A stretch of DNA of 64,000 bases from positions 123,940,001-124,004,000 of the forward strand of contig NW_024704742.1 of assembly GCF_018977255.1 (NCBI RefSeq). The letters are read 5' to 3'. Below are positions 12,322 to 64,000 of the stretch, in pieces. Source of the stretch: Callorhinchus milii. Lineage: Eukaryota. The translations under genes and the position numbers were made by a program. The stretch's first letter is position 1. Every line of letters starts with the position of its first letter. The notes under the pieces are model-generated. The model saw only the letters and a list, made by a program, of their open reading frames with translations. It did not search any database and was not told the DNA's origin.

Positions 12322-15948
<3,627 letters not shown>

Positions 15949-26500: not shown

Positions 26501-29500
26501 GAATTTAACTACATTCGCAGCAGGAACATGAGAAATCACACGTTCAGGGAAATCTCCCTTTGTCTATGATGAAATACGTATTTTCTCCACGGAGAGATGC
26601 ACCTAGTTCACCTAATCCTGGAAAGTACAATATATTAGGCTCAGTTTCACAAGAGCCAAGGCAATGGAACCCCAAATAAAGTGTTATTCTGCTGCTGGAG
26701 TTTAACCAGCTAAATCCATGCAATTTACCATTGCAAACACTGACTGGTGAGCTTCTTGCTGTTCGTCCAATTCATCCAGTTTGTCCTACCATTAGCACTT
26801 TGGTTTGTAGGATTAGGAGGAGTCAAGTGGAAGGATCCCGGCCCCCAGTGACGAGTCTGTGGTTCCAAGTCCCGTTGTTCCAACATATGTTGACAAACCA
26901 GTGTCTTGGAGTACTGTAGATATACTTGGCTCAGGAACTAGATTACTGAAATCACCAGAGCTGGTCTACTGGATTCCAATATTCCATTGTCAGGTGTGTT
27001 ATCGTGAAGCTATCTCAGCCACAAAAAGACCCAGCATGTTCCCCACCCCTCATTTAGGATCATGGAAATCAGGCTGCACTGGAAAGGTCATTGCAGTCTA
27101 TCTGTCTGCTCTCAATCTTTTGAAGAATCTCATGCCTATTCTCATGCCCCAAAAACTATTTCTTTGCTAATCTAGGAATATACTGGACTGGTACAATTAA
27201 TGTAACTGAAACCATAATATAGTTTCTGTTTGAAGCAGCAAGTTCTCAGGTTTTACTAGATTATCATTTCCCCCCATAAACTATTACTTTAAATTGCTGC
27301 ACAAAGTAATATTGCGGATCAGACTTACATTTTACAATGTGCTGCAGTCAGGATCCAGTTGGGTTTGATCAAAGCTCCTCCACATACATGTGTGAATCGT
27401 TTCCGTGTTTTGTTAAAAGCCTGAATAGATGCCATGTAAGGTTTTGAATGAGATCTAACCTTACTTCCTCCAATAATTTCCACACAATCATCTATAATGA
27501 TAAAAGATAAATAAAAAGCATCCTGATACAATAACAACTTGCATTTGTATAGCACTCTTCAAACAGGGTAGGATTTTGAAACGCTGAATACTACAGAGAT
27601 CACATAATTTGAAAGCAATTTCTAAGCTAGGGGTACATTGAACAACATTTTACCAGAAGCAAAAATATATTTAAATATCTTCCTTATTAGCTATATTAGT
27701 TCCGTGGAGACCTGTAGCTCAGTGATTAAAGCACTTGCCTTGCAAGTGAGAGACCTGGGTTTGATTCCCAGCAGGGTGAAATGTTGGGAAAGTTTCCTTA
27801 TTCCACACGCCTGATAATAATCCCTCAAAAAAAAATAATAAATTGGTCTCTTCAATCCACAATCTTTTGTGGGATACTGTTGTGTGTAATTGGGTGCTGC
27901 ATTTCGCCCACAAAATATACAACCAATTGACTTTACAGTATATTCTGTGAAGCACTTTGAGACAACAACAAAATTACATTTGTATAGCGCCTTTCATGTT
28001 AAGAGGACGTCCCAAGGCGCTGGGTGGGGGTCGGGGGAGAATGGAGGACAGAGTGGAAGCAAGGAGATCAAAAGCACAGTTGAAGAGCAGGGTCTTGAAG
28101 CGGGTCTTGAAGGTGGTAAGTGAGGGGCGAGGCGGAGGAACGGCGGGATGGAGTTGATGTCTAACAGACATTCTTCAGGACAGCAGTGGTCCTGGAGTCA
28201 AGGGTGGAGGCAGAGAGGTAGAGTTGGGTATCATCTGCATACATCCGGGTCTGGCCTCCTCTTCATCCCCCGAGTCCTCCGTTCCACCCTCGGTGGCTGT
28301 ACCTTCAGCCACTATGTCCCGAGGCTCTGGCATTTCCTTCCGCACTCCCTTCGCCTCGCCCCCTCTCTTCCTATTTTCAGATCTCTGCTGAAGACCTTTC
28401 TCTTCGACCGCGCCTTTGGTCACCTTCCTCCCCATCCCCCTGGCTCGGCGCCCGGATCTGTTGCTGTAAAGCGCTCTGAGACACCGTCCGGCATGGAGGG
28501 CGCTATATAAATCCAAGTTGTTATTGGAAGTTGACCACATGTCTACGGATGATGTCACCAAAGGGGAGTAAATAGATATTGAAGAGGAGGGGACCAAGGG
28601 CAGAGCCCTGAGGAACACCACATGAGACAGTCCGGGGTCTAGAGGAGAAGCCGTTTGAGGAGATGAAATGCAGGCAGTGTGAGAGGTACGATCTGAGACG
28701 TCAGATAAAGACGTGAAATGCGCCATATCAATGCAAAGATTATTATCTTTATCTTCATTTTGAGTTTCACCCACAATATACAGTCAATTCACTTTAGGGT
28801 ATATTCTGGGAAGCACTTTGAGACATCTCAAAGACACAAAAAGGCACTATATCAAATGCAACGATTATTATTAAATATCTTCATTTTTATAGTGAGTTAA
28901 CAGTGTTGTCTGCTTTATTTATTGCAGTAAAGCTTTATTTTCACTATAAAGCAACTAAGAAAGGATACTTTCTTTGAGCAGGATTATCACCCAGAAATGT
29001 TAATGCAAATGCAAGGATTATCATTATCAGAATCAGATCTAATTTGGGAATGTATTTCATAGAGTATTTGTCTCCAAACTTTAGACTGGAAGAGTTATGG
29101 GGGAAGTTAGTAGAAACATTTTCACACAAAAACAGGTATTAGAACCTCATTGCCACAAAATAATTATTTGATTAATTATTGATGCTAAAAAGGATTAGCA
29201 TAAACATCTCAATATCCTAAGTATCTACCATATAGTTGTAATAACAGTTTTCAGTTGAATACCTTCTGGCTTATACAAATAAACATTTTTTGTTATTTTA
29301 CAAGGTTCATTAGAAAGGAATGAATGCCCACAAAATGAGTTTAAATGTATTCTCGGCGAGAACATACAAAAAGCATGAAAATGATAATGAGTTCATGAAA
29401 GATACTCTTTCCATGTTACAAGATAACTTTAACTAAAACTGCTAGTCATAGACTATCACTTTACTTACAGCCTGGTGTTAGAGTGAACAAAATTGTCACA

Positions 29501-35737: not shown

Positions 35738-38700
35738 TTAATCCATTGTCATGTTATGAGTTGTAACCCTGATTTTATCATTTATCCAGCGGAGATTGTT
35801 CTTGGATAATCGGGTATAAATGCCAGGTTTGTTGCGAAGTGCACATTCATCTCCTCCACCTATAATTATGCCACAGTACACTTTTTTCCTAAACATTTTA
35901 GTTTGACAAATTAATGGTCCACCCGAATCTCCCTGAAACAAAACAAGGAAAAAATTCTTAACATAATAAAGACAAGAGTTCACATATTGCCATCTTTATA
36001 CAGCTGAAAGTGAGGCAATATTGTTGGTAGAAAGCTTAATAATAATAATGATACTTTCATTTCATTTAGCGTCTTATCACATCATCGAGAAGTCTCAAAG
36101 CACTTCACAGAATATACTGCAAAGTGAATTGACTGTTGATTTTGTGAGCGAGCTTGATTTATACTTGCTCCATATCATTTCTGAGCACCAAATTTCAGAG
36201 TTTTTGTAAGGGTGAAATACAGTAAACTTCCCATAAGTCGTATCAATTGGGTCCATACATTTAATATGACTTATGCAAAGTATGAGTGATGTCAAACTTG
36301 CTAGAATATGAACTCTTGAATGGAACTTGGGCAGATGTATGACGGAGTCAATTAGACGATTTATACAGATCTGACTTATGCAAGTTTTACTGTAACTTTT
36401 TAAAACAACAATTTCATCAAAATTCTTAGTCTAAAAACTCTCAGGCATTCCAATAACCAGTTTCAACTTTCCCATCAAGGAAACAATGGGGAGCAGAGGC
36501 CTTAGCAACTTGTTTCACTGAGGTTATACTCAATGGCGCAAATTGATGTGTTTCTCAAATCACCTCCTTTAAAATCAGTGCTTAGACATGTGAATTACAG
36601 GGTTTAGCATTTATATGAATAGGCACTATTGTTGTTAGACTTATTTTATGAAACTTAAGCACAATTAATTTAGCAAAGAACCTCAATGGTGTTAACAACC
36701 ATTTACATTTACATTTAAAATTATTTAAACACAAATTCATAACAGGTATGGAGCCTCTAACATCAAGAGGACGTTCCATAGCACTTCACAGGCTTTACTG
36801 TAACATGGAGTGTTTTGTACATTAGTACATTTGTCTGAATAAACATTGTAATGTAATGCAACAGCCACAGTTGTGAATAGCAAATAGACATTGCAACAAC
36901 TGGAGCCATAAAACAGCAACCTCAAAGCATGAACTTTTGAAGTGAAACAACAATTGGCTTTGTCACTGAATGAATCTTATAATAATAATAAAAATACTTG
37001 CATTTAATATAGCGCCTTATCACGTCGTTGAGACACCTCAAAGCGCTTCACAGAATATATTGTAATGTGGAGTGACTGTATTTTGTGGGCGAAATGTCTT
37101 GCACAAATTTCACTTTTAGGGTCCAGGAATTTACAGCTAAAATAATCAAAATCTAGTAATAATGTATTACTTACCAAACATGAATCTTTTCTATATTTTT
37201 TATCACCAGCACATAACATTTCCTCTGTTATCAAAGGATCGCCATTATAACACACTTCACTGTTGCAGACCTTCCTGTCCATTATTTCTATATTCACTTT
37301 CTTTAGAGTATCAGAAGGTGTTGTACTTCGTGGATTAGTTATTCCCCATCCTGCAATACTGCACTTGGTTTTAGGTTTGATATCTTCTGTCGATTTTGGA
37401 AGCTTCAGCGTTGACACATACTTGTTCAGAACAGCTTCATGAGACAACTGTGACATATTAAGCAAAGAATAGCATTTGTTTATAACTGTTAGTGCTGAGT
37501 AAGAAACAAGCAGTAGAATACTGTTGTTGCACAACCTACGTCCTTTGTGGACTAGATTTGGGCAGCCTCAAATGAGCTCTCAGTAAACTAGGCTGAGAGC
37601 ACAAAGTTGTCTTTAATTTGGTATTAAATGGCACAACATTAACAATACGAGTGAGACTGGATGGCATTCTGGTGCAACAGAGGGCGCACTTTTTGCATGT
37701 TAGTACACGGATATTAATTACAGGTTAATTACACTGCTTCATCCAACAATTGGCTACACACAGAACAATCCCACACAGGAGAGATAAGATTCATTTGGTT
37801 AAGATCCATTACATTTATCGCTAACTTTTATTTGATTATTTGGGGCATAAGATTTATTTAGATCTGTTTGATTACATATTCTAGGAAACCCTAAACTTCC
37901 GCCAAGTCTAATAATAATAATAATCCTTGCATTTGATATAGCGCTTTTCACGTCGGGAGGATGGCCCAAAGCGCTTCACAGAACACACTGTAAAGTGAAT
38001 TGACTGTATATTTGTGGGCGAACGCGGCAGCCAATTGCGCACAGCAATGTCCCACAAACAGTCGTAGATTGAATATGACCAATTTATTATTGTTTTTGGT
38101 TTTGGAGGGATTATTATTATTAGGCGTGTGGAGTAAGGAAACTTGCCCAAGGTTTTGCCCTGCCTGGAATTGAACTCAGATCTCTCACTTGCAAAGCGAG
38201 TGCTCTAACCACTGAGCTACAGGACTCCACTGTAAGCTTTTACAACCATTTTATTTTAAAATGTAAGATGGTACAGAGTTAAGCAAAATTCTTAAATTCT
38301 ATGTTCATTTGGAAGACGATCCTTTTTTAAGAACAGCAGAAAACCAGCTTGCAAATTATGACTGAATTTAAGAATTTCCCACAATTTTCCATCGTGTAAA
38401 ATTTTAAGACTATACGGTTGGTTTTTCAGGTCATAATTGGATGGAATTTCAGGCCTGAGACTCAGTCAACAACATTTAAAATGGAATAGGGTAAAAACTT
38501 TGAAAAGAAAAAATATATAAAAGAGTAGTGGGGAAAAGAATGAGGATTTGGGTTTGGAGTAGATGGCTAGAGTGGGTGAGCTAGCAACAGCTTAAGCTTA
38601 ATTGATCAAATATCTCCTTATTATCCTGTAATTTCTTGGATCCTATTGTGTTCTGGTATTCTGAATTGGCCCACAGTTAACGTGGTGGTGGGTGGGGAGC

Positions 38701-40957
38701 TGGGGGTTATAATCGTACTAACAGTAGCAACAGCAGGGCGAAACCTTGGGCAAGTTTCCTTACTCCACACGCCTAATAATAATCCCTCCAAAACAAATCA
38801 ATAATAAATTGGTCATTTTCAACCACGACTGTTTGTGGGACACTGCTGTGCGCAATTGGCTGCCACGTTTTGCCCACAAATATACAGTCAATTCACTTTA
38901 CAGCATATTCTGTGAAGCGCTTTGAGACGTTGAGAAGACGTGAACAGCGCTATATCAAATGCAAGGGTTATTATTATTATTATTATTATTATCAGCTTTT
39001 CAATCTTAAAGTGTCCTGTGAGAAAATCAAGCCCCATCAAACTGCCCCAGTTGGGTTCTCTGTGCTCTGGCGTTGTAAGCCATCGCCCAATCACAGATTC
39101 TTACCGGATCGAACTTTAGTTACCTGTAATAGCATGATGTCGTGCCTAAGCAAATGGAAATCTTTATGAGGTACAACCTGCACGACTTTCAATAACTGTT
39201 CCTTCTTTCCCGTTCTGTTAGAAAGTGAATGAGCCCCGAGAAGTACTTCAATGCGTTTGTGCATTATATTTCTGCAATTGTAAAAAGAAATTGAGCAGTT
39301 GAAAATGCAGCCGCAGATTCACGTTCATGTGGTCTCTGGCCTCATTGTACGCGATTGCTCGTGGCTGTCTTCATAAGCCTGAAGTGACACTGAGTGATAA
39401 AAGAGTAAATATTAGACAATAATAAATGAGATGGTATGTGCCTATTGCAGCGATTTCCAAATTTGTGGGAGCAGGGATCAGACCAAGTGATAAACCGACC
39501 CACTAACAGCTAAAATTCAGAAATATTAACTGAAATTTTTTTAAGGGCATGATTCTTTGATCATTATTAATCTCACCTACCTGGGCAGGTCAGCATATTT
39601 TATTTTTCATTGGGTAGCAATTCCCATGCTAAACTCACACGGTGAGTGTACAACCATTGACAATTCACCCCAGACCTTTATTCCACATCAGACAGTATAT
39701 TTCCTCACACAGCTTTCAGGGAAAACTAGGGGCTTAAGCTAAACAAAATGAAATTTTATCCCAACAACAACAACAACTTGCACTTATATAGAGCTCTCCA
39801 AGTAGGGTAGCGTCTCAGAGTGCTTAACGGTGGCTGACGCCAAGCCGGAAGGGAGGGAGGTGGCCGTAAGTACGTTCGACACTTTAACATCAGAGCTAAT
39901 TGGGTTTAAAATTAATCTTACATTTAAATAAGATTATACACAGGAAGAGTAAGCAGGTTTTTAGAGGTATTTAAAATCAACTCCCGCACCCCGACATCGT
40001 TGGGAAATTCTTATGGACTTCATAGCCTGACTAGCCCATGGTTTAATGTATGACTTCCATCTGGAACCATAGAAATACATGCAACACAGAAGAAGGCTAT
40101 TCCGTCCATTGGGTCTGTGCTGGTTCTTTGAAAGAACAATGCATTCAGTCCCATTTACTTGCCTTTTTTCCGTACTCCTGCAAATTATTTATTTTCAGAT
40201 ATCTATCCAGCTACTTCCTTATCAAGACTGCTTATAAAAAACACTGTCTAGTAGTGGTATTGCATTAGAGCATCAGCCTAGATTATGTCAAATTGCTTCA
40301 CAGGATCTACTGTAAAGTGCAGTGACTGTGTATTTGTCGGCAAAATGCCTTGGGTGGGGCTTAAATCTACAACTTTCTGATCAAGAGTTTTGCCAATTGA
40401 ATCAAACTAATACTTAAATGATAGTAATTTCTGACAGAACAGATGATAGGTATTTTATTAATGGTCACTGAGTTATTTTTTACAAAAGGTAAATCTTAAG
40501 CAATGAAGGAAAATAAAGGGCAACAAGGTTGTTCTGACTAAATGAATCACTTTTAAAGCATCAAAGATGAATTTCAACAAATATTGTAATCTGTAATATT
40601 ACTTTAAAATCACACCTGCACAATAGGGAATAAGAGAAACAAAGTGACTTACAGTGAACAGTGTGCTGCAGTCAGTATCCATTCAGGTGTGATCAAAGCT
40701 CCTCCACATTTATGATTTCCATCTACCTGAATAGATGCCATGTATGGTCTTGAGTGAGGTTTAACATCTTGACCTCCGATGATCTCCATGCAAATATCTA
40801 TGGCAGGCAATAATAAATAAACAATAAATACGAAATGGTCAGCTCATAGAAAAATTGCTAGTTAACATAAAATTAGATCTGTTCTATACTTACAGCCTTG
40901 CAAGGCCAGGAAAATTATTTTAAAGGCAAGGATCACCATATTAATAACATCCATCAT
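35738..40957 (-). CDS. Gzm5: intact granzyme K-like tryptase, 274 aa
   Basis: Exons 40894-40957, 40653-40797, 39124-39271, 37175-37447 and 35738-35932 (825 nt, in frame). [56 protein letters not shown]. The ME propeptide, Gly215 and KPGIYT resemble mammalian GZMK. Confidence 0.87.
37909..38230 (-). mobile_element. Young full-length tRNA-Ala SINE in Gzm5 intron 3
   Basis: Same family; a 5'-truncated copy lies in the opposite orientation at 38735-38991. Confidence 0.88.
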
Positions 40958-44888: not shown

Positions 44889-47800
44889 TCAGTTTTGCTT
44901 CATTGTTGTATTGTAATTTGTGCCTTTAATTGATTTCTTAATCCACGTGACATGTTTACTGGATAGAAGCATATAGATGCCAGGCTTTTTGTCAACAGCA
45001 CAACCCTTTCCAAAAGAGGCAACTCCAGAGAAGACAGGTTTACCGAAACGTTTTGTTTTACACAGTAAAGCATCACCAGCATCGCCCTGCAACAAAACAA
45101 ATACAAATTATCACTCAACTTATATAAACATTAATATAACAATTCACACCATAATAAGTATACCACACTCCACTCCTTCAAACTCCAAAAATGTAAGGAA
45201 AGAGTTTACACCTCAAGCTTGTTTCTGTTTTACAATTATTATTATTATTATTTTCTAAGTTATTTTCTGTCTCCCCTTTTGGTTTCATATTTTGTACTAG
45301 TCTGTGATGGGAGGATAGGCTAATGGCCTATACATGTAATCTTGGTCAATAGTGAGTGCCCTTGAAGGTGATACAAGATATTTGTACAAACAGAGTGGCC
45401 TGAATTCCTTCACTTACTGAGGACAAATTCCTGTTATTCTTTGAATCACTGTGTAAATTATGCATGTTAGTTATACACAACGACAATTATTGTATACAAG
45501 GAATGGATAACTTACCACACATACACTGTTTTTACCCGTTTTGTCACCAGCACATATCATATCGTCAGTTATGACTGGATTCCGATTATAATAATTTTTA
45601 CTGTTGCAGGTGGTTCTGTCTATGATTCTTACAGTTGTTTCCTTCAAAGTGTCAGATGACTCATCATCATCTACACTGTCCTGACCCCATCCTTGAACAA
45701 TGCATTTTGTTTCAGGTTTGATATCTTTTGTTGATTTTGGCAGCGAAAGGATTGATACAAATTTATTCAGTTTAACAGGACGATCTAACTGTAACACACA
45801 AGAAAATCATAATAAAATGTAGACTATGCTTAAAAGTGATGTGTTTATGCCAGTTTTATTTCCCCAAGATTTTGCAATGCAATACATGTAAGTGAATCTA
45901 TATTGGCAGATGAGGTTTAATCCAGAGAAATGCAAAGTAACGCATTTTGGGAGGAAGAATGAGGAGAGACAATATAAGATGATGGTACAATCTTAAAGAG
46001 TGAGAAGGAAAAGAGAGACCTGGGATTTCATATAAGCAAATGTTTGAAGGTAGCAGGACAGGTATATAAAGCTGTTAAAAAGCATATGGGATACTAGGCT
46101 TTATAAATAGGGGCATCAAATACAAAAGTCAGTAAGTTATGATGAACCTTTATAAAACACTGGTTAGGCCTCAATGAGAATACTGTGTTCAGTTCTGGGC
46201 ACCACACTTTAGGAAGAAAGTCAAGGCATTGGAGAGGGTGCAAAGGGGATTTACCAGGATGGTACCAGGAATGAGGGACTTCAGTTATCAGGAGAGGCAA
46301 GAGAAGCTAGGATTATTCTCTTTGGCGAAGAGAAGGTTAAGAGGAGACTTAATAGAAATTTTCAAGATGATGAGGGGATTCGGTAGGGTGAACAAGGAGA
46401 AACTATTTCCACTGGCTGATGGGTTGGTAACCCGAAGACACTGATTTAAAATAGTTGTTAAAAGAAACAGAGGGGAGGTGAGGAGAATTTATTTCACACA
46501 ACGAGTTGTTTGGATCTGGAATGCGTTGCCTGAAAGGATGGTGGAAACCGATTTGATAACAACTTCTAAGAGAGAAGTAGATAATTATTTGGGGAGGACA
46601 AGTTTGCAGGGTATGGGGAGAGATCTTGGGAATAGGATTAATTTGGATAGCTCTTTTTAAAGAGCCGCTGCAATCACGATGGGCCGAATGGCCTCTTTCT
46701 GTGCTGTATAATTCTATGATTCTAACAATATTACTGAGCCACAATGTACACTGTTCTGCGGATAATTTCAAAATACCCAGTGAATTCACTTTGCAGTATA
46801 TTCTGTGAATCGTTTTGAGCAAGAACAACAACAAAATTACATTTGTAAAGCACCTTTCACGTTGGGACGACATTCCAAGGCACTGAACAGTCAGGGATCA
46901 GGACCCAAGTGTGGGGAACCCAGTTGTTAGTCGATTGGCAGATCACTTTTCCAGGGGTAATAATTCCTCAAAAAAAATTGGTTGCTCAATCTATAACTGT
47001 TTGTGGGACACTGCTGTGCAAAATTGGCTACCGGGTTTCACCTACGAAATATACAGTTAATCAATTTACAGTATATTCTGTGGAGGACCTTGAGACGTCT
47101 CGAAGATGTGATAAGGCCCTATATCAAATACAAGGATTATTTTTTTTAAATTATTATTGTAAAGCCTCCAAACCATATGATCTCAATGAATTTATCGATT
47201 CTGTGGATAATTGTACAGATGATATCATAATATATCATATTCCATACATTTGAGACAATAACACATTAACAAAGCCACAATTTTTACCTTAAGTAGCGCC
47301 AGGTTATTTTCCTCTGTCTTTTGATTATAGTTTTCACGTTTTTCCGCTATGGCTGTAAATTCCTGCCTTGTCTTGTTATTCTTCAAGGAAAGGGTTCCAA
47401 GGATCACACTTTTTTTCCCTTTGTGACGTTTGCTGAGGTGACTGTGTAAAGAAACTTTGTTACTTGGTGTATTTTTTAAAAAGGTTTTCAATTAGTTCAA
47501 TCATATCAATATCAACATTCACATGAAAATGAAATAACAGCAAACATTCTGTTTAATTTACTGCTTTCATTTTAGGGTGAAATTCCTACTGGTCTATTTG
47601 TGGATACAAGTATAGTATCTTTTTATACATTTTTACCCATTGTTCACACCCAGTACACACAGATCAGTACAGTAATAATAATCATAATAATAATAATAAT
47701 CATAATAATCCTTGCATTTGATATAGTGCTTTTCACGTCTTCTAGGCGTCTCAAAGTGCTTCACAGAATAGACTGTAAAGTGAAGTGACTGTATAATTGT

Positions 47801-48493
47801 GGCCGAAATGCAACAGCCAATTGTGCGCATCCTCTCTCACAAAAAGTTGTGGTATGAAGTGACCAATTTAATATTGTTTTATTTTCTTAAGGGATTATTA
47901 TCAGGCATATTATTATCAGTGGATTAATTGAAACTAAAATTGGCTTACACCACCCTTAACTTATTCTCAGACTGAGACTTTTCTGTTTGCTACACTAATT
48001 ATTATTAAATTTTGATTAAAGTTTCTTAATGAATGATAATTAATCGAAAATGTACAGCAGTTTGCTGGTACGATCTGGAAGTGGTTTGAGATGCCCTACA
48101 CTTTGCAAATTACAACCTTCAAAGCTAGATAATATCTCATATTAAAAGGTATATTGGTGCTCATTTTGTTTTATTAAGTAACTATTAGTATAAACAACAT
48201 GTTACAATACTTACACAATGCAGTTTGCTGTCGTCAGGATCCACTGGCGATGAATCAATGTTGCCCCACATTCATGTTTGTTTTGAAACTGAATGGATGC
48301 CATATAAGATCCTGTCTTCTTAACATCACGACCATCAATTATTTCCACACAAAAATCTACAGCACAAAATGAATACAATTGTTACAAATAATCGTTATTT
48401 ATGGGAATCTTAAACCAGGTTGTGAACATACTTACAGCCTTGACTGACTAAGGCGATAATGATTACTGAGACGAATAATATTACTTGATGCAT
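44889..48493 (-). CDS. Gzm6: catalytically inactive granzyme homologue (pseudoprotease), about 271-274 aa
   Basis: Exons 48436-48493, 48215-48356, 47288-47432 (alternative in-frame acceptor at 47441), 45516-45788 and 44889-45086. All are GT-AG with no stops. Signal MHQVILFVSVIIIALVSQG, FCVE|IIDG, TTANC (H57N), EENNLALL (D102N), NSVCVGDAGDA (S195A, Ser at 189). Eight canonical Cys are retained. Confidence 0.85.
45885..46722 (+). mobile_element. CR1 LINE 3' fragment in Gzm6 intron 3
   Basis: ERVQRGFTRMVPGMR..LGLFSLAKRRLRGDLIEIFK, FTQRVVWIWNALP and a 3' tail ctgtataattctatgattcta. Confidence 0.85.
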
Positions 48494-58367: not shown

Positions 58368-59494
58368 GGATTTCACAAGCAAGTTTACAATCAATTAATG
58401 AAACAAAAGTGAGATTAATACCATGTTTCACAATTTATTTTCTTGTTAGCAAAATACTGATACATTTTTCTCTTGTTTTAGCCTCAAACATTTATGAACA
58501 GCAGTAACATAAGACGTGATGCTATCTAACCTGCATCAAGAGCTGTTTATGGACTATTGCTGTGGACAGATTATCTGCTACATTCACATACACAGTCATC
58601 ACAGTAAATCCCGTAAAGCCCTTTGAGATGTCCTACAAACGCGAAAAGCACTTTATGTAGAAGAATCTCTCTAAACATCTTGGATATACACAGGTTTTAT
58701 ATATAGTTAATAATAATAATCATAAAAAAAATCATTTTATTATTATCAATTCTGTATACAACCTATGCTCATTCAAGATAATAATAATAATCCTTGCATT
58801 TGATATAACGCTTTATCATGTCATCGAGACATTCAAAGTATTTCACAGGATATACTGTAAAGTGGATTGATTGTGTATTTTGTAGATGAAACGCAGCAGC
58901 CCAGTTGCGCATAACAATGTCCCACAAATAGCCATGGACTGAGTGACCAATTCTGTTTGGGGGATTGTTGCCCAGGATACTGGGAGAAACTCCCTTCTCT
59001 TTTCAAATAGTGCAAGTGGGATCTTTAACATCCACTTGAACAGGCAGATGGGATCTCAGTTTAACATCTCATCTGAAGGACAGCACCTCTGACAATGCAA
59101 CACACTTCCATCACTGCATTGGAGTGTCACCTTAGGTTATGTGATTCCAAGTCCCAATGCGACTCAAAGTCCACACAACCTTCTGACTCAGAGGTGAGAG
59201 TGCTGAGTGCACTGTGCCAAGGTGACACACAATTTATTGCTCTCATATTTAGGAAGACTGGTTTCACAATTCCTGAATAAAACAAGCCTTGCTGGTCTGT
59301 TGTTGGTCACTTGGTCTAGACTTACCATATTATCTTTGCTAGTTTTTCCGAATCAGTAGCAATAGAGTATTCAAGAGTCACACATGCTGAAAGTGTCAGA
59401 TTTCTTTCAAATCACTCAAACTACAAAAACCTATAAGCAAGCTATAGTTTAATCACCATAAGCCAACAAATACGGATCCTTCATGATTTTCTTG

Positions 59495-62400
59495 TTAAAT
59501 TTGTTTAACTGGCGCATGATAACTTTCAACTCCAATGAGTTTCTGAATCCAGGAGATGTATTTCTCTGTTAACAGGGTGCAGATTTCAGGCTTGTTGGCA
59601 TCTTTGGAATTCTTTCCATGTAAAGCAATACCACACAACATCTTCTTCTTATGCAAAACCTTTCCTATTTTGCACAGCAATGGACCACCTGGAGAAATCT
59701 GTGGTAAAAAATTAGACAACATGTTAGAACTGGAGTATTCAAGTAAAGATAAAGATATTGCAGTCATGAAATGAATAATCAATTCATGAGGGCATACCAT
59801 GTGAGACATATAATAAGTAATCTTGTGCTATGGTTTACTTTCAAATGATTGCACTCCATGTAATGTATTTCATCTGTTCCAGTGAATATACTGGAACTCT
59901 GCAGTTTAGTGGTTTAGCACTCGCTTCACAAGCAAGAGGACCTCGGTTTGATTCCCGAGCAGGGTGAAATGTAAGCAAGTTTCCTTACTCGACAAGCCTG
60001 TGTTTATCTAGCAGTAAGTAGGAACCGTTAGTTGGCAGATTGCTTTTCCGGGAGTAATAATCCCGTCAAAAAATATATAAAAGGAATATTAATCCACACC
60101 TCTGTGTGCAATTGGCCCAGAAAATATACAGTCAATTCATTTTGCAGTATATTGTGTGAAGCACTTTTAGATGTCTCGAAGACGTGAAAAGGCACTATAT
60201 CAAAAGCAAGGATTATTATTTTGCTTCATCCCATTATAAGTTCATACCATCGAGGCAGTAAAGTTACTGGCCTTGTAAAGGTATGGCGAAAGGCCACCGA
60301 TGGTGGGGCGATTAGGGCGGGGGATGTGGAGCAAACCGGAGCCAGTAGAACGGAGGGTACGGGCAGGTAGGTAGGAGGATAGTAGGTCGGAGAGGTAGGA
60401 GGGAGCAAGGCCGCGAATGGCCTTGTAGGTGAGGAGGTAAATGCAAGTGAGGTGTAAATGCAAGGATTATTATTATTATGTGCCAAGATCTAATAACTTG
60501 TGGAACAAGCTAAATGGCCTCATCTTGTCCTTGCTTTGCTCTGTTCTTATTGACAAATGGACAATTATACAGAGCTGCCATCAAAGTCTGTACATTTACC
60601 AACAATCTGAGAATCAACTCCTAGATCTATTATATAAATAAAGCACACATATATATATATATCCTATATCCTTGCATTTGATATAGCGCTTTTCACGTCG
60701 GGAGGACGTCCCAAAGCGCTTCACAGAACACACTGTAAAGTGAATTGACCGTATATATGTGGGCGAATGCGGCAGCCAATTGTGCACAGCAATGTCCCAC
60801 AAACAGTCGTAGATTGAAAATGACCAATTTATTATTTTTGGGGGATTTTGGAGGGATTATTATTAGGCGTGTAGAGTAAAGAAACTTGCCCAAGGTTTCG
60901 CCCTGCCTGGAATTGAACTTAGGTCTCTCGCTTGCAAAGCGAGTGCTCTAACCACTGAGCTACAGGACTCCACATGTTCTCATGCTAGCTAAATATCACA
61001 GTTTACAATATGAATGAGAGATATAAATTCCTTCAAATGACAGTGGCATTCCTCCCGACATGAAAGGCACTGTATAAACATAAATTATTATTGCTGTTGT
61101 TGTCAATGACTTACCATGCACATATTATTTTTACCCTTTTGTTCAGCTGCACAGATCATGTTGCTAGTTATAATTGGATGTTTGTGGTAAGATTTATTGC
61201 AGGTGGCATTATCAATCACAGTTACATCTGCTTCCATCAAAGTGTCAGACGATTTCTGAACATTTGTACTGGTTTTTCCCCATCCCAGAACACTGCACCT
61301 TGTTCCACGTTTGATGTCTTTTGGCAGTACTTGCAGATGGAAGATTTCTACAGATTTCCTTTTAATATTTGCATCTTGAGCTAACTGTAACAGATAAAAA
61401 TAATCATCTATTGCACTTCAGTCTATAGCTCTTAAATACATACTCCTTAAACATGTAAAGCTCCGAATTCCCACAAAACTCACAGTCAATCCACTTTACA
61501 GTATATCCTTTCTTAGATAAAGAGACCAAAACTGCACAGAATATTCTAGGTGCGGACTCACCAAGGCCCTATGCAATTGCAGCAAGACTTCCCAGCTCTT
61601 GCACTCTAACCCCTTTGCAATAAATGCTCACATTTATTAGCCTTTCTACTTGTTTGCTGAACCTGCATACTAACTTTTTGTGATTGGTGTACAAGGATAC
61701 CTAAATCTCTCTGAATATTAACACTAACTAGTCTCTCCCCCTCTATCTTATATACTCTCATATTCCATTATCATCCTTTTAATCAGTTTTTTAGTTATCC
61801 TTTGCTGATCTCTAAAGCCCTCCCAATCCTCAGGTTTACAGCTCTTTTTTGGCAATAGGCCTCTTCTTTTAATTTTATACTTTCCTTAACTTCTCTAGTT
61901 ACCCATGGTTGAACCACTTTTCCCGTTGAATTTTTATTTCTCAAGGGAATATGCGTTCGCTGGGAATTATATAATATATCTTTGAACATTTGCCATTGCT
62001 TGTCTACCATCATATCTTTTAATCTACCTTCCCAATCTATTTTGTCAAATCATCCCTCATACCTGCAAAGTTGGCTTTATTTAAGTTTAAGACCCTTGTT
62101 TCAGACTTAACTACATCACTCTCAAACTTAATATTAAATTCCATCATATTCTGGTCACTCTGGCCTAGAGGAGCCTTAACTTCAAGATTACTGATTAGCC
62201 CTGCTTCGTTACACAATACAAGATCTAGGATAGCCTGTTCCCTGGTTGGTTCCTCAGCATATTGTTCTGGAAAACTATCTCTAATCATTCCATAAACTCA
62301 TCCTCTAATTTACTTTTGTCAATTTGGTTTTCCCAGTCTATATGAAGATTAAAATCACCCACTATTAGTGTATACCTCTTGCTACATGCTTCTCTAATTT

Positions 62401-63251
62401 CCTGATTAATACTCTGCCCAATACAGTAACTGCTGTTTGGGGGTCTATAAACTGCTCCCACTAGTGTTTTCTACCCCTTGTTGTTTCTTAGCTCCACCAT
62501 TACTGATTCTACATCCTGATTTTTTGACTTAAGGTCCTTCCTCTCTACTGTTTTTATCTCATCCTTTATTAGCTCCCAACCTTGGTCTCCCTGTAACCAC
62601 TCAGTAATGGCTACTAGATTGTACCCATTTATCTCTATTTGTGCCATTAATTTGTCTATCTTGTTACAAATGCTGTGTGCATTCAGTTATAGCGCCTTTA
62701 ATTTTCACTAAAAATACTTTTTACTAATTCCCCTACACATTAATACCCTATTTTCTTTGTTAAACTCTTTGTCCCTACTTGACACACTCTTTTCTTCATC
62801 TCCCAAGTCACTACTCTGCTCTACAGCCTTGACTTTTCTCATCTAATTCTGTTTCTGATGAATGCAGAAATATAAATGTGAACGTATTTTGCCCACAAAA
62901 TACACAGTCACTCTACTTTACTTCATATATTCCATGAAACCCTTTGAGACATCTTAACAACATAATAAAGGGATATATCAAATGCAAGGATTATTATTAT
63001 TAATATCAGATAACCCTCTCTTCAAGTGTAACAGCTTGCCAGCCCCCAGAAAACTCCTTGCTGAAAATAATGGCTGGATAATTTATTACACAAAATTTAC
63101 CTGGAGAAGCATGATGTCATTTTCTAGGGATAAATCCTTGAATTCAGGGAATGGTATTACGTTTTCCACCCGAATTTTCTGTTCTGTCTTACCCTTCTTC
63201 TTTGTTGATTGATCTCCAAGGACCACTGTAGGATTCTTTTTCTTAAACAAC
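59495..63251 (-). CDS. Gzm7: exons 3-5 of a second probably inactive granzyme homologue; exons 1-2 lie beyond the window end
   Basis: Exons 63101-63251 (VVLGDQS...ENDIMLLQ), 61115-61384 (LAQDAN...CSVLGWG...MICAAEQKGKNNMCM) and 59495-59698 (ISPGGPLLC...ISWIQK...stop). All are open with canonical splice sites. GDSGGP has become ISPGGP. Confidence 0.8.
60668..60973 (-). mobile_element. Young tRNA-Ala SINE in Gzm7 intron 4
   Basis: Same family. Confidence 0.87.
61510..62870 (-). mobile_element. Internally deleted CR1 LINE fragment (endonuclease region plus a piece of the RT C-terminus) in Gzm7 intron 3
   Basis: EQYAEEPTREQAILDLVLCNE, LGQSDQNMMEF, LNLNKANF and WQMFKDIL..HIP. Confidence 0.8.
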
Positions 63252-64000
63252 CTGCAGATTTTATAAAAAAACAGATAGTGTTTGAAGGATCTTATCATTT
63301 TGGAAATTATTTAGTTGCATTGAATGAGGATCAGAAAAAGACAAAACGTAAAATATCAGATCTTTAATATCATGAACACTTTCAAGGGGAATTTATTAGT
63401 ATATCTGAATGTCCTGCTAGTTTTGCGCACAGCAAGGTCTCACAAACAGCCAAAGAGTGAGTGACCAATTTTGTTTGGGGGGTTGTTGGCCAGGAGACTA
63501 GGAAACACTCTTCTCTTTTTGAATAGTGCCATGGGATCTTTAACATCCATCTGAACAGGGAGTTTAATGTTTCATCCGAGGACACCACCTCCGAAAATGC
63601 AACACTTCATTGGAGCGTCAAATTAGACTATGTCTTAGCAATGTGTTATGGTACTATATTGAATGCAAGGATTATTATTAGTATTATGTATATCTCCATG
63701 ACTCCAACTCCAGCTTTCCTCTATTGCTTATTCTTTGTCCTTGTCTGCCTGCTTGCACACCCGCCCACCCTGTGAAAGACAGGGGATGCTCTTAGAAGGC
63801 AGAGATATCTCAGCATCCATAGCACAACTTCAATTAAACTACAATTCTCAAATGAGTCCAGCACCCTGGGCTCAATCACCCTTCCCCGCATCCCGTTCCA
63901 GTTGCTAATTACCCTCTGGATAAAGAAAAACCTCTTGTTGTCTGTCCTGAAACTGCTCTTTTCAACTCTAAACCTGGATCCTCTTGTACTGTCTTGTTAT

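What the first reader, a model, noticed from the sequence alone, without database searches (positions are those of the whole stretch)
59495..63251. Second dead granzyme next door, inactivated by different substitutions (GDS to ISP)
Seen in sequence: exon 5 begins ATT TCT CCA GGT GGT CCA (ISPGGP, 59698-59681), i.e. G193I, D194S and S195P. Position 189 is Asn (KNNMCM), Cys220 is Ser (GKNSKD), Ser214/Phe215 are Leu/His and Gly226 is Glu, while Asp102 (ENDIMLL) is kept. Three exons (625 nt) stay open with good splice sites. Established knowledge: the nucleophile, the oxyanion hole and the Ile16-Asp194 activation salt bridge would all be lost. Inference: none of the visible lesions is shared with Gzm6, so catalysis looks to have been lost twice independently, suggesting a family of non-catalytic granzymes alongside the active ones.
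Basis: partly seen in the sequence, partly recalled or inferred. Interest (0 to 1): 0.78.

Follow-up and report, generated by a model that had tools for sequence, protein, structure and literature searches.

The report
Ancient dead granzyme pair in sharks
This elephant-shark gene is transcribed and encodes a granzyme (a killer-cell protease) that lacks its cutting residues; equally disabled copies of it and of its neighbour are kept in all the sharks and rays we could check, so they probably do an old non-cutting immune job.

Summary
Observation confirmed. Three open exons (151+270+204 = 625 nt) encode ISPGGP at 193-198, N189, S220, E226, with D102 kept. Database records identify the locus as Callorhinchus milii and supply exons 1-2: signal peptide, His57Ser, MTRSG instead of IIGG. 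Probable-RNA contigs of two studies splice at these junctions, and no GDSGG exon 5 exists nearby.

The 'lost twice' inference is not supported. Orthologues in 15 of 15 sharks and rays lack His57 (N 9, S 6) and carry Ala195. The neighbour Gzm6 has Asn57 in 13 of 14 species and Ala195 in 8 of 14. The two clades are sisters with catalytic columns removed (95/79; 82/71; alternatives not rejected). One loss before the holocephalan-elasmobranch split (~420 My), then duplication, fits best; ISP is later erosion in the elephant shark.

Sharks keep an intact Asp189 pocket, like a natural S195A mutant. Akula 2015 listed both elephant-shark genes as enzymes; nine literature searches found no report of inactivity. 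Function is inferred: binding, azurocidin-like.

The parts
63101..63251 (-). Exon 3 of Gzm7 (151 nt); holds Asp102 (ENDIMLL, codon 63118-63116)
   Evidence: covered without differences by contigs X8-23 and X5-17
61115..61384 (-). Exon 4 (270 nt); ends KNNMCM with Asn189 (61126-61124) and Cys191
   Evidence: spliced to exons 3 and 5 in X8-23
59495..59698 (-). Exon 5 coding part with stop; Leu214/His215 (59623-59618), Ser220 (59608-59606), Glu226 (59587-59585), Cys228
   Evidence: X8-23 and X5-16
59681..59698 (-). ISPGGP in place of GDSGGP (Ile193, Ser194, Pro195)
59416..59494 (-). 3' UTR; ATTAAA at 59453-59448 is a candidate poly(A) signal
   Evidence: contig X5-16 ends at 59416; motif found; the poly(A) role is inference
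63252..64000 (-). Intron 2 (part); exons 1-2 (signal peptide, His57Ser) lie beyond the window end
   Evidence: residues 1-72 of P0159 have no match here; RNA contigs carry 151 and 158 further bases upstream of exon 3
44889..48493 (-). Gzm6, the sister pseudo-granzyme (Asn57, Asn102, Ser189, Ala195, Asp197), five exons, same strand, downstream
35738..40797 (-). Nearest active-type granzyme (exons 2-5; AAHC, HDIMLL, GDSGGP), used as a control paralogue

Best explanation
Gzm7 is an expressed, secretory-pathway, catalytically dead granzyme A/K-locus protein. It belongs to one of two sister lineages (G7, G6) that descend from one granzyme-K-like gene, which lost His57 (to Asn) and Ser195 (to Ala) before chimaeras split from sharks and rays and then duplicated in tandem.
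SHOWN: splicing, loss of His57/Ser195, trypsin fold, orthology, conserved G7-then-G6 order.
INFERRED, about 0.8: a single loss.
INFERRED, about 0.5 given the above: it is stored and released with the active granzymes and acts by surface binding rather than cutting, most likely polyanion/LPS binding and monocyte or antimicrobial modulation as described for S195A mutants of human granzymes A and K and, by analogy, azurocidin.
The extra elephant-shark lesions (Met16, Asn189, Ile193, Ser194, Pro195, Ser220, Glu226, Cys228) should leave it zymogen-like with a collapsed S1 pocket, so in this species the job cannot depend on the pocket.
For: Splicing: X8-23 (786 nt) joins all three exons with 0 differences; X5-17 joins exons 3-4; the genomic-looking run X1 runs through exon-intron borders instead. 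X5-17 has 151 extra bases, the exon 2 length predicted from P0159 with the Gzm6 phase (hand arithmetic). Full model P0159 = XP_007890379.1, 279 aa. Residues: G7, 16 species: 57 = N 9, S 7; 195 = A 15, P 1; D102 16 of 16. G6, 14 species: 57 = N 13, D 1; 102 = N 14; 195 = A 8, V 3, L 1, S 2. All 23 other rows keep H57, D102, S195. Trees: G7 99/99, G6 100/100; G6+G7 89/91 with all columns, 82/71 and 95/79 with 19 catalytic and pocket columns removed; 818 of 1000 bootstrap trees. Constraint: G7 identity Heterodontus-Hemiscyllium 79% against 79% and 70% for active paralogues over a comparable species split (Heterodontus-Rhincodon); about 10 stops expected on the elephant-shark branch if neutral, none seen (rough P 4e-5). 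Fold: pLDDT 86.6, top Foldseek hit pro-granzyme K 1mza. Non-catalytic precedent: GzmA-S195A still restricts mycobacteria (PMC8368726); GrK-SA binds LPS (review PMC8129556) and triggers sVEGFR1 release, more weakly than wild type (PMC8220216).
Against: The G6+G7 branch is short and never starred; AU tests do not reject G7+active-D group (p 0.092) or G6+D (p 0.27; 143 of 1000 bootstraps). His-to-Asn and Ser-to-Ala are single-base changes and could converge. Two G6 orthologues have Ser195 (Cetorhinus, Scyliorhinus canicula), read here as reversions. Net charge +19 lies within the range of active paralogues (+5 to +26), so cationicity is not diagnostic. The elephant-shark branch is long (0.73-0.91 against 0.44-0.65 for paralogues). 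The 10 displayed exon-4 differences in organism B alter 8 of 8 codons (the list is truncated), hinting at relaxed or positive selection. No tissue, cell-type or protein evidence; the run type is only guessed as RNA. PMC10366535 argues that LPS contamination may explain cytokine effects of granzyme A.
Confidence: 0.6

Rival explanations
1. Active-site decoy or substrate trap: G7 binds Arg/Lys-P1 inhibitors or substrates without cutting them, shielding the active granzymes from host or pathogen inhibitors or competing for their substrates. G6 would be the acid-pocket counterpart. The elephant-shark copy has drifted or switched partner.
For: Asp189, Asp194, Ile16, Gly226 and Cys191-Cys220 are kept in 15 of 15 elasmobranch G7; Gly193 and Gly216 in 9 of 9 sharks; Lys189 in 13 of 13 elasmobranch G6. 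Fast change in the elephant shark and the all-missense differences in organism B fit an arms race.
Against: All 6 batoids have Val193 and Arg216, which should block S1, and the elephant shark has lost Asp189, Asp194, Gly226 and Cys220, yet all keep the gene. These residues may be kept for folding.
Confidence: 0.25
2. One reading: G6 and G7 lost catalysis independently from separate active ancestors (function as in the best explanation).
For: AU p 0.092 and 0.27 for alternatives; D102 is lost only in G6; residue 189 differs between clades.
Against: Same inferred ancestral Asn57 and Ala195 in both clades; further shared derived residues; best tree joins them in 3 of 3 analyses; adjacent genes.
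Confidence: 0.2
3. Partner or scaffold: G7 chaperones, packs or allosterically tunes an active granzyme or G6 inside the granule.
For: G7-then-G6 order is seen in fused gene models of 7 species; G7-specific conserved residues outside the active site (K110, K130, K132, E135, K230 in P0159 numbering); an even count of 10 Cys in the elephant-shark protein with new Cys at three places.
Against: Tandem order is expected from duplication alone; active neighbours are fused in models too (P0179, P0180, P0183), which points to annotation artefact.
Confidence: 0.12
4. In chimaeras the gene is a transcribed relic that has recently come under relaxed selection and is decaying, whatever its role in sharks.
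For: Longest chondrichthyan end branch (0.73-0.91); loss of IIGG, Asp194 and the 191-220 disulfide; 8 of 8 displayed codon differences in organism B are missense.
Against: No stop or frameshift after roughly 185 replacements; canonical visible splice sites; signal peptide kept; spliced contigs in two studies.
Confidence: 0.12

Closest known systems
Granzyme A/K (T-cell tryptase) locus proteases, peptidase family S1A
   Same: Tandem locus, five-exon layout with 270-nt exon 4, trypsin fold (top hits 1mza, 9k1s, 1orf), signal peptide plus xE dipeptide, high positive charge; groups weakly with pig/peccary GZMK (85/70).
   Different: His57 and Ser195 are absent in all 16 G7 orthologues; the elephant-shark protein also lacks IIGG, Asp189, Asp194, Gly193, Cys220 and Gly226.
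Azurocidin (CAP37/HBP)
   Same: Inactive, granule-type serine-protease homologue beside active paralogues (PMC4646688, PMC7914634 passages); its His57Ser/Ser195Gly pattern is recalled, not from a call.
   Different: Azurocidin belongs to the met-ase/elastase locus of some placental mammals and is far younger; this pair is in the A/K locus of cartilaginous fishes. No antibacterial activity is shown here.
Engineered GzmA-S195A and GrK-SA mutants
   Same: Shark G7 is a natural S195A (plus H57N) with an otherwise intact tryptase pocket; the mutants keep antimycobacterial, LPS-binding and sVEGFR1-releasing activity.
   Different: Natural, fixed for about 420 My, and further eroded in rays and the elephant shark; the mutant activities are disputed.
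The 'NGE enzyme' and 'SGG enzyme' of Akula et al. 2015 (PMC4646688)
   Same: The same two elephant-shark genes, judged by their 189/216/226 triplets.
   Different: The section read treats them as enzymes of altered specificity and does not note the missing triad; no elasmobranch orthologues appear in the passages seen.

Membership tests
Granzyme A/K locus gene family (by descent) | Trypsin S1A fold closest to granzymes A/K | tested here: met
   Pfam, PDB sequence hits, AF2 and Foldseek
Granzyme A/K locus gene family (by descent) | Lies in the tandem A/K cluster with granzyme exon structure | tested here: met
   Five further granzyme loci on the same strand in the window; flanking non-protease genes not checked
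Granzyme A/K locus gene family (by descent) | Nests among A/K-like sequences in a tree | tested here: met
   only A/K-like rows were included, so other granzyme loci were not competed
Active granzyme (tryptase) | His57-Asp102-Ser195 triad | tested here: not met
   Ser57, Asp102, Pro195
Active granzyme (tryptase) | Ile16-Asp194 activation switch (IIGG N-terminus) | tested here: not met
   MTRSG and Ser194 in the elephant shark; Ile16 and Asp194 kept in 15 of 15 elasmobranch orthologues
Active granzyme (tryptase) | DGG S1 triplet (189/216/226) | tested here: not met
   NGE here; DGG in 9 sharks, DRG in 6 batoids
Active granzyme (tryptase) | Storage in cytotoxic-lymphocyte granules | not testable with these tools
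   Only a signal peptide judged by eye and spliced contigs of unknown tissue
Azurocidin | Orthology to the elastase/PR3/azurocidin cluster | tested here: not met
   Best sequence and structure hits are granzymes A/K and the gene lies in the A/K cluster; azurocidin itself was not put in the tree
Azurocidin | LPS/heparin binding, antimicrobial or chemotactic activity | not testable with these tools
   Needs recombinant protein
Functional pseudoprotease (not pseudogene) | Open frame, spliced transcript, conservation across species | tested here: met
Functional pseudoprotease (not pseudogene) | dN/dS below 1 in the holocephalan lineage | tested here: inconclusive
   No stops on a long branch, but 8 of 8 displayed codon differences against organism B are missense, from a truncated list

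The most novel reading that the evidence does not exclude
Cartilaginous fishes have kept, for about 420 million years, a dedicated pair of non-catalytic granzymes with opposite pocket charges (Asp189 in G7, Lys189 in elasmobranch G6). They embody the protease-independent function long debated for mammalian granzymes A and K, split off by duplication, and act as pattern-binding or inhibitor-decoy effectors of cytotoxic cells.
Probability: 0.35. Interest if true: 0.8.

Novelty: new variant of a known kind. Interest (0 to 1): 0.63.

Why it matters
Whether granzymes A and K have real protease-independent functions is disputed (PMC10366535). A lineage that has preserved natural catalytically dead granzymes across sharks, rays and chimaeras implies selection on a non-cutting role. 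It also supplies a graded series (intact pocket in sharks, blocked in rays, collapsed in the elephant shark) for mapping the surface that matters. It corrects current annotation ('granzyme K-like', fused 'transmembrane protease serine 9-like' models) and the published reading of two elephant-shark genes as enzymes with new specificities.

Tried and rejected
No whole genome is held, so exons 1-2 were not read as DNA; they rest on database proteins and on contig lengths.
First protein search with exon 4 alone: 0 of 19 candidates scored, uninformative.
No holder run is on record as RNA: 'no RNA holder listed'; the RNA status of X5 and X8 is a guess backed by their spliced contigs. The joint table was swamped by repeats and does not list the exon joints; they were read from the contig-piece table.
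Alternative GDSGG exon 5: none between 61115 and Gzm6; the four G[DN]SG[GS]P matches lie at 35932, 23756, 17714 and 12489.
Real two-domain G7-G6 fusion protein: rejected as probable annotation artefact. Junctions differ between species, the elephant-shark junction has no GT donor in the window, X5-16 runs past the stop into the UTR, and active neighbours are fused too.
G6:G7 complex prediction: no verdict, score 0.00, alignments not used.
AF2 of the Heterodontus orthologue as control: same confidence profile (pLDDT 86.4), so pLDDT cannot tell zymogen-like from active-like; the pro-granzyme K top hit may reflect sequence identity.
Net charge does not separate dead from active paralogues. ESM Atlas gave only trypsin-family clusters. 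Earlier-findings look-ups gave two unrelated bacterial pseudoproteases and otherwise nothing. Supplement of PMC3964593: 0 hits for granzyme, GZMK or GZMA in the 1 file held.
Full report
OBSERVATION. The minus strand carries three granzyme-type exons at 63251-63101, 61384-61115 and 59698-59495. They join to 625 nt and 207 open codons with AG/GT borders. Exon 5 starts ISPGGP. Aligned with active granzymes, the residues are N189, I193, S194, P195, L214, H215, S220, E226 and C228, with D102 kept. All three exons hit Pfam Trypsin, and granzymes A and K are the best solved relatives. No GDSGG-type exon lies between exon 4 and the next gene; the four matches in the window belong to paralogues further downstream.

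IDENTITY AND MISSING EXONS. No genome is held and residues 1-72 are not in the window. A search of cluster representatives with exon 4 (729 hits, best 150 listed) returned the neighbour Gzm6 (P0020, matching the window's exons except three residues in exon 3). Its cluster is annotated Callorhinchus milii and contains this gene: XP_007890379.1 (279 aa), XP_007890380.1, A0A4W3K892, a 191-aa form that reads into intron 4 (V9LFE0) and a fused 555-aa model. These add a hydrophobic leader (judged by eye), CME-MTRSG in place of CxE-IIGG, and WVLTAASC, i.e. His57Ser. Two of three triad residues, the oxyanion-hole Gly193, the Ile16-Asp194 switch, Asp189, Gly226 and the 191-220 disulfide are therefore all missing. 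That this abolishes catalysis is established S1A enzymology, not tested here.

EXPRESSION. Four of 24 listed runs were laid. In X8 (study P3; RNA is a guess), one 786-nt contig joins 59493-59698, 61115-61384 and 63101-63251 with no differences and continues 158 nt upstream. In X5 (study P2), one contig joins exons 4 and 3 and continues 151 nt; another covers 59416-59699 with 13 further bases. With the exon phase of Gzm6, P0159 predicts a 151-nt exon 2 (hand arithmetic); the letters were not shown. X1 contigs run across exon-intron borders, as genomic DNA would. Tissue and level are unknown.

ORTHOLOGUES. Searches with the stingray hit P0033 (22 proteins) and with Gzm6 (6 proteins), plus cluster look-ups, gave G7 in 16 species (9 sharks, 6 batoids, elephant shark) and G6 in 14. 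G7: position 57 is N in 9 sharks and S in 7; 195 is A in 15 and P in 1; D102 in 16 of 16; I16, D189, D194, C220, G226 and Y228 in 15 of 16, the exception always the elephant shark; G193/G216 in 9 sharks, V193/R216 in 6 batoids. G6: N57 in 13, D in 1; N102 in 14; 195 is A 8, V 3, L 1, S 2; K189 in 13 of 13 elasmobranchs. All 23 other rows keep H57, D102 and S195. Species without a hit were not shown to lack the genes; the word-based search is incomplete. No bony-vertebrate member fell into either clade among the rows used.

ONE LOSS OR TWO. G7 (99/99) and G6 (100/100) are firm clades, each containing its elephant-shark gene. They are sisters at 89/91 with all columns (40 rows), 82/71 with 19 catalytic and pocket columns removed (39 rows) and 95/79 with 53 rows. 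In the set, 818 of 1000 bootstrap trees join them, 143 join G6 with the active D group and 50 join G7 with another active group. AU tests do not reject G7+D (p 0.092) or G6+D (p 0.27). Rows left out: P0153, P0039 and P0048 (partial or aberrant ends) from all trees; P0078 (start not parsed); long-branch P0071; two partial Chiloscyllium rows and P0182 (replaced by full or cleaner models); three Logan fragments. Both clades most simply start from Asn57 and Ala195; Ser57 and Pro195 are each one base from these. They also share Q159, D164 and D196, rare in active paralogues. I put a single loss followed by tandem duplication at about 0.8. The split is about 420 My old (PMC6238376, start of abstract only).

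SELECTION. Among elasmobranchs G7 is about as conserved as active paralogues: Heterodontus-Hemiscyllium 79% against 79% and 70% (Heterodontus-Rhincodon); Heterodontus-Amblyraja 65% against 71%. The elephant-shark copy is the most diverged: 49% to Heterodontus against 56-62% for paralogues, end branch 0.73-0.91 against 0.44-0.65. About 185 replacements without a stop would be unlikely under neutrality (about 10 expected; rough model). Against my reading: the 10 exon-4 differences shown for organism B change 8 of 8 codons. About 0.74 of non-stop point changes are missense, so this is near 0.09 under neutrality (hand arithmetic) and less likely under strong constraint. The list was truncated (232 rows hidden), so it is only a hint of relaxed or positive selection in this lineage.

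STRUCTURE. AlphaFold2 gives a confident trypsin fold (pLDDT 86.6, pTM 0.87), with pro-granzyme K first in Foldseek (TM 0.83). The Heterodontus control has the same confidence profile, so the zymogen-like state is inferred from the sequence, not shown by the models.

MECHANISM. Shown: a spliced, conserved, non-catalytic granzyme. Inferred: secretion through the granule route and action by binding. The gene survives with an intact pocket (sharks), a blocked pocket (batoids) and a collapsed one (elephant shark). G7-specific conserved residues lie outside the active site (K110, K130, K132, E135, K230; not mapped in 3D, and the 130-135 stretch is next to a gap). I therefore favour a surface-mediated role of the kind reported for inactive granzyme mutants: GzmA-S195A restricts mycobacteria, GrK-SA binds LPS and releases sVEGFR1 weakly. 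These effects are contested, and net charge (+19) does not differ from active paralogues. The main rival is an inhibitor decoy or substrate trap, which fits the strict retention of Asp189 in G7 and Lys189 in G6 of elasmobranchs.

PRIOR KNOWLEDGE. Akula et al. 2015 (PMC4646688; passages, section 12 whole; figures not held) count five elephant-shark A/K genes. They call these two the 'NGE' and 'SGG' enzymes without noting the missing triad. PMC10366535 (passages and section 13) names only cichlid exceptions to the DGG triplet. Also seen as passages: PMC7914634, PMC6795676, PMC8368726, PMC8220216, PMC8129556. PMC3964593: search listing and one supplement file searched, no hits. Nine full-text searches showed no paper describing inactive chondrichthyan granzymes. 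Only the top 15-25 rows were seen where more matched; subscription papers, figures and bioRxiv supplements are not covered. MEROPS-type homologue lists were not checked. Recalled, not from calls: azurocidin's exact substitutions and cathepsin C removal of the xE dipeptide.

VERDICT. A real, transcribed pseudo-granzyme. It is the most eroded member of an old, apparently undescribed pair of dead granzymes in cartilaginous fishes. Pseudoproteases as a kind are well known, so this is a new variant; the function remains to be tested. Interest 0.63.

Noticed in passing
window 20381-17562 (minus strand): A granzyme copy whose exon 2 has a G-run one base shorter than its near-identical paralogue at 14839, shifting the frame after the start of the mature protein. 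Its exons 2-3 resemble the gene at 14839 and exons 4-5 the gene at 27477: a mosaic duplicate, a pseudogene or an assembly artefact. UniRef A0A4W3K883 models a 171-aa piece.
   Followed up: partly
G6 orthologues (P0195-P0197, P0199, P0200, P0203, P0205, P0211 and fused models): Lys at position 189 in 13 of 13 elasmobranch G6 proteins (Ser in the elephant shark), opposite in charge to Asp189 of G7; two species have Ser195 but still lack His57 and Asp102.
   Followed up: partly
P0154, P0006, P0175, P0176, P0198, P0202, P0206: Public models fuse G7 and G6 into one protein in 7 species, several named 'transmembrane protease serine 9-like' or 'serine protease 53-like'; junctions differ, probably artefacts, though low-level read-through is not excluded.
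   Followed up: partly
P0041 (lungfish XP_043920357.1) and P0005 (Polypterus KAG2466072.1): Granzyme-A-like models with VDTGGP and GDYGGP at the nucleophile motif: possibly further dead granzyme-like proteins in bony fishes; not placed in a tree.
   Followed up: no
window 61112-61103 and P0155: A 191-aa record (V9LFE0) ends MCMVSH, reading into intron 4 to its first stop: an intron-retaining form lacking exon 5.
   Followed up: no
   Followed up: partly
window 60668-60974 and about 61500-62850: A short interspersed repeat 90-95% identical to about ten other copies in the window lies in intron 4; intron 3 holds a longer high-copy repeat that looks like a LINE fragment (recalled resemblance, untested).
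   Followed up: no
P0159 Cys32, Cys234, Cys252: The elephant-shark protein has lost Cys220 but has three Cys absent from its orthologues (10 in the mature chain against 8), so its disulfides may be rewired.
   Followed up: no
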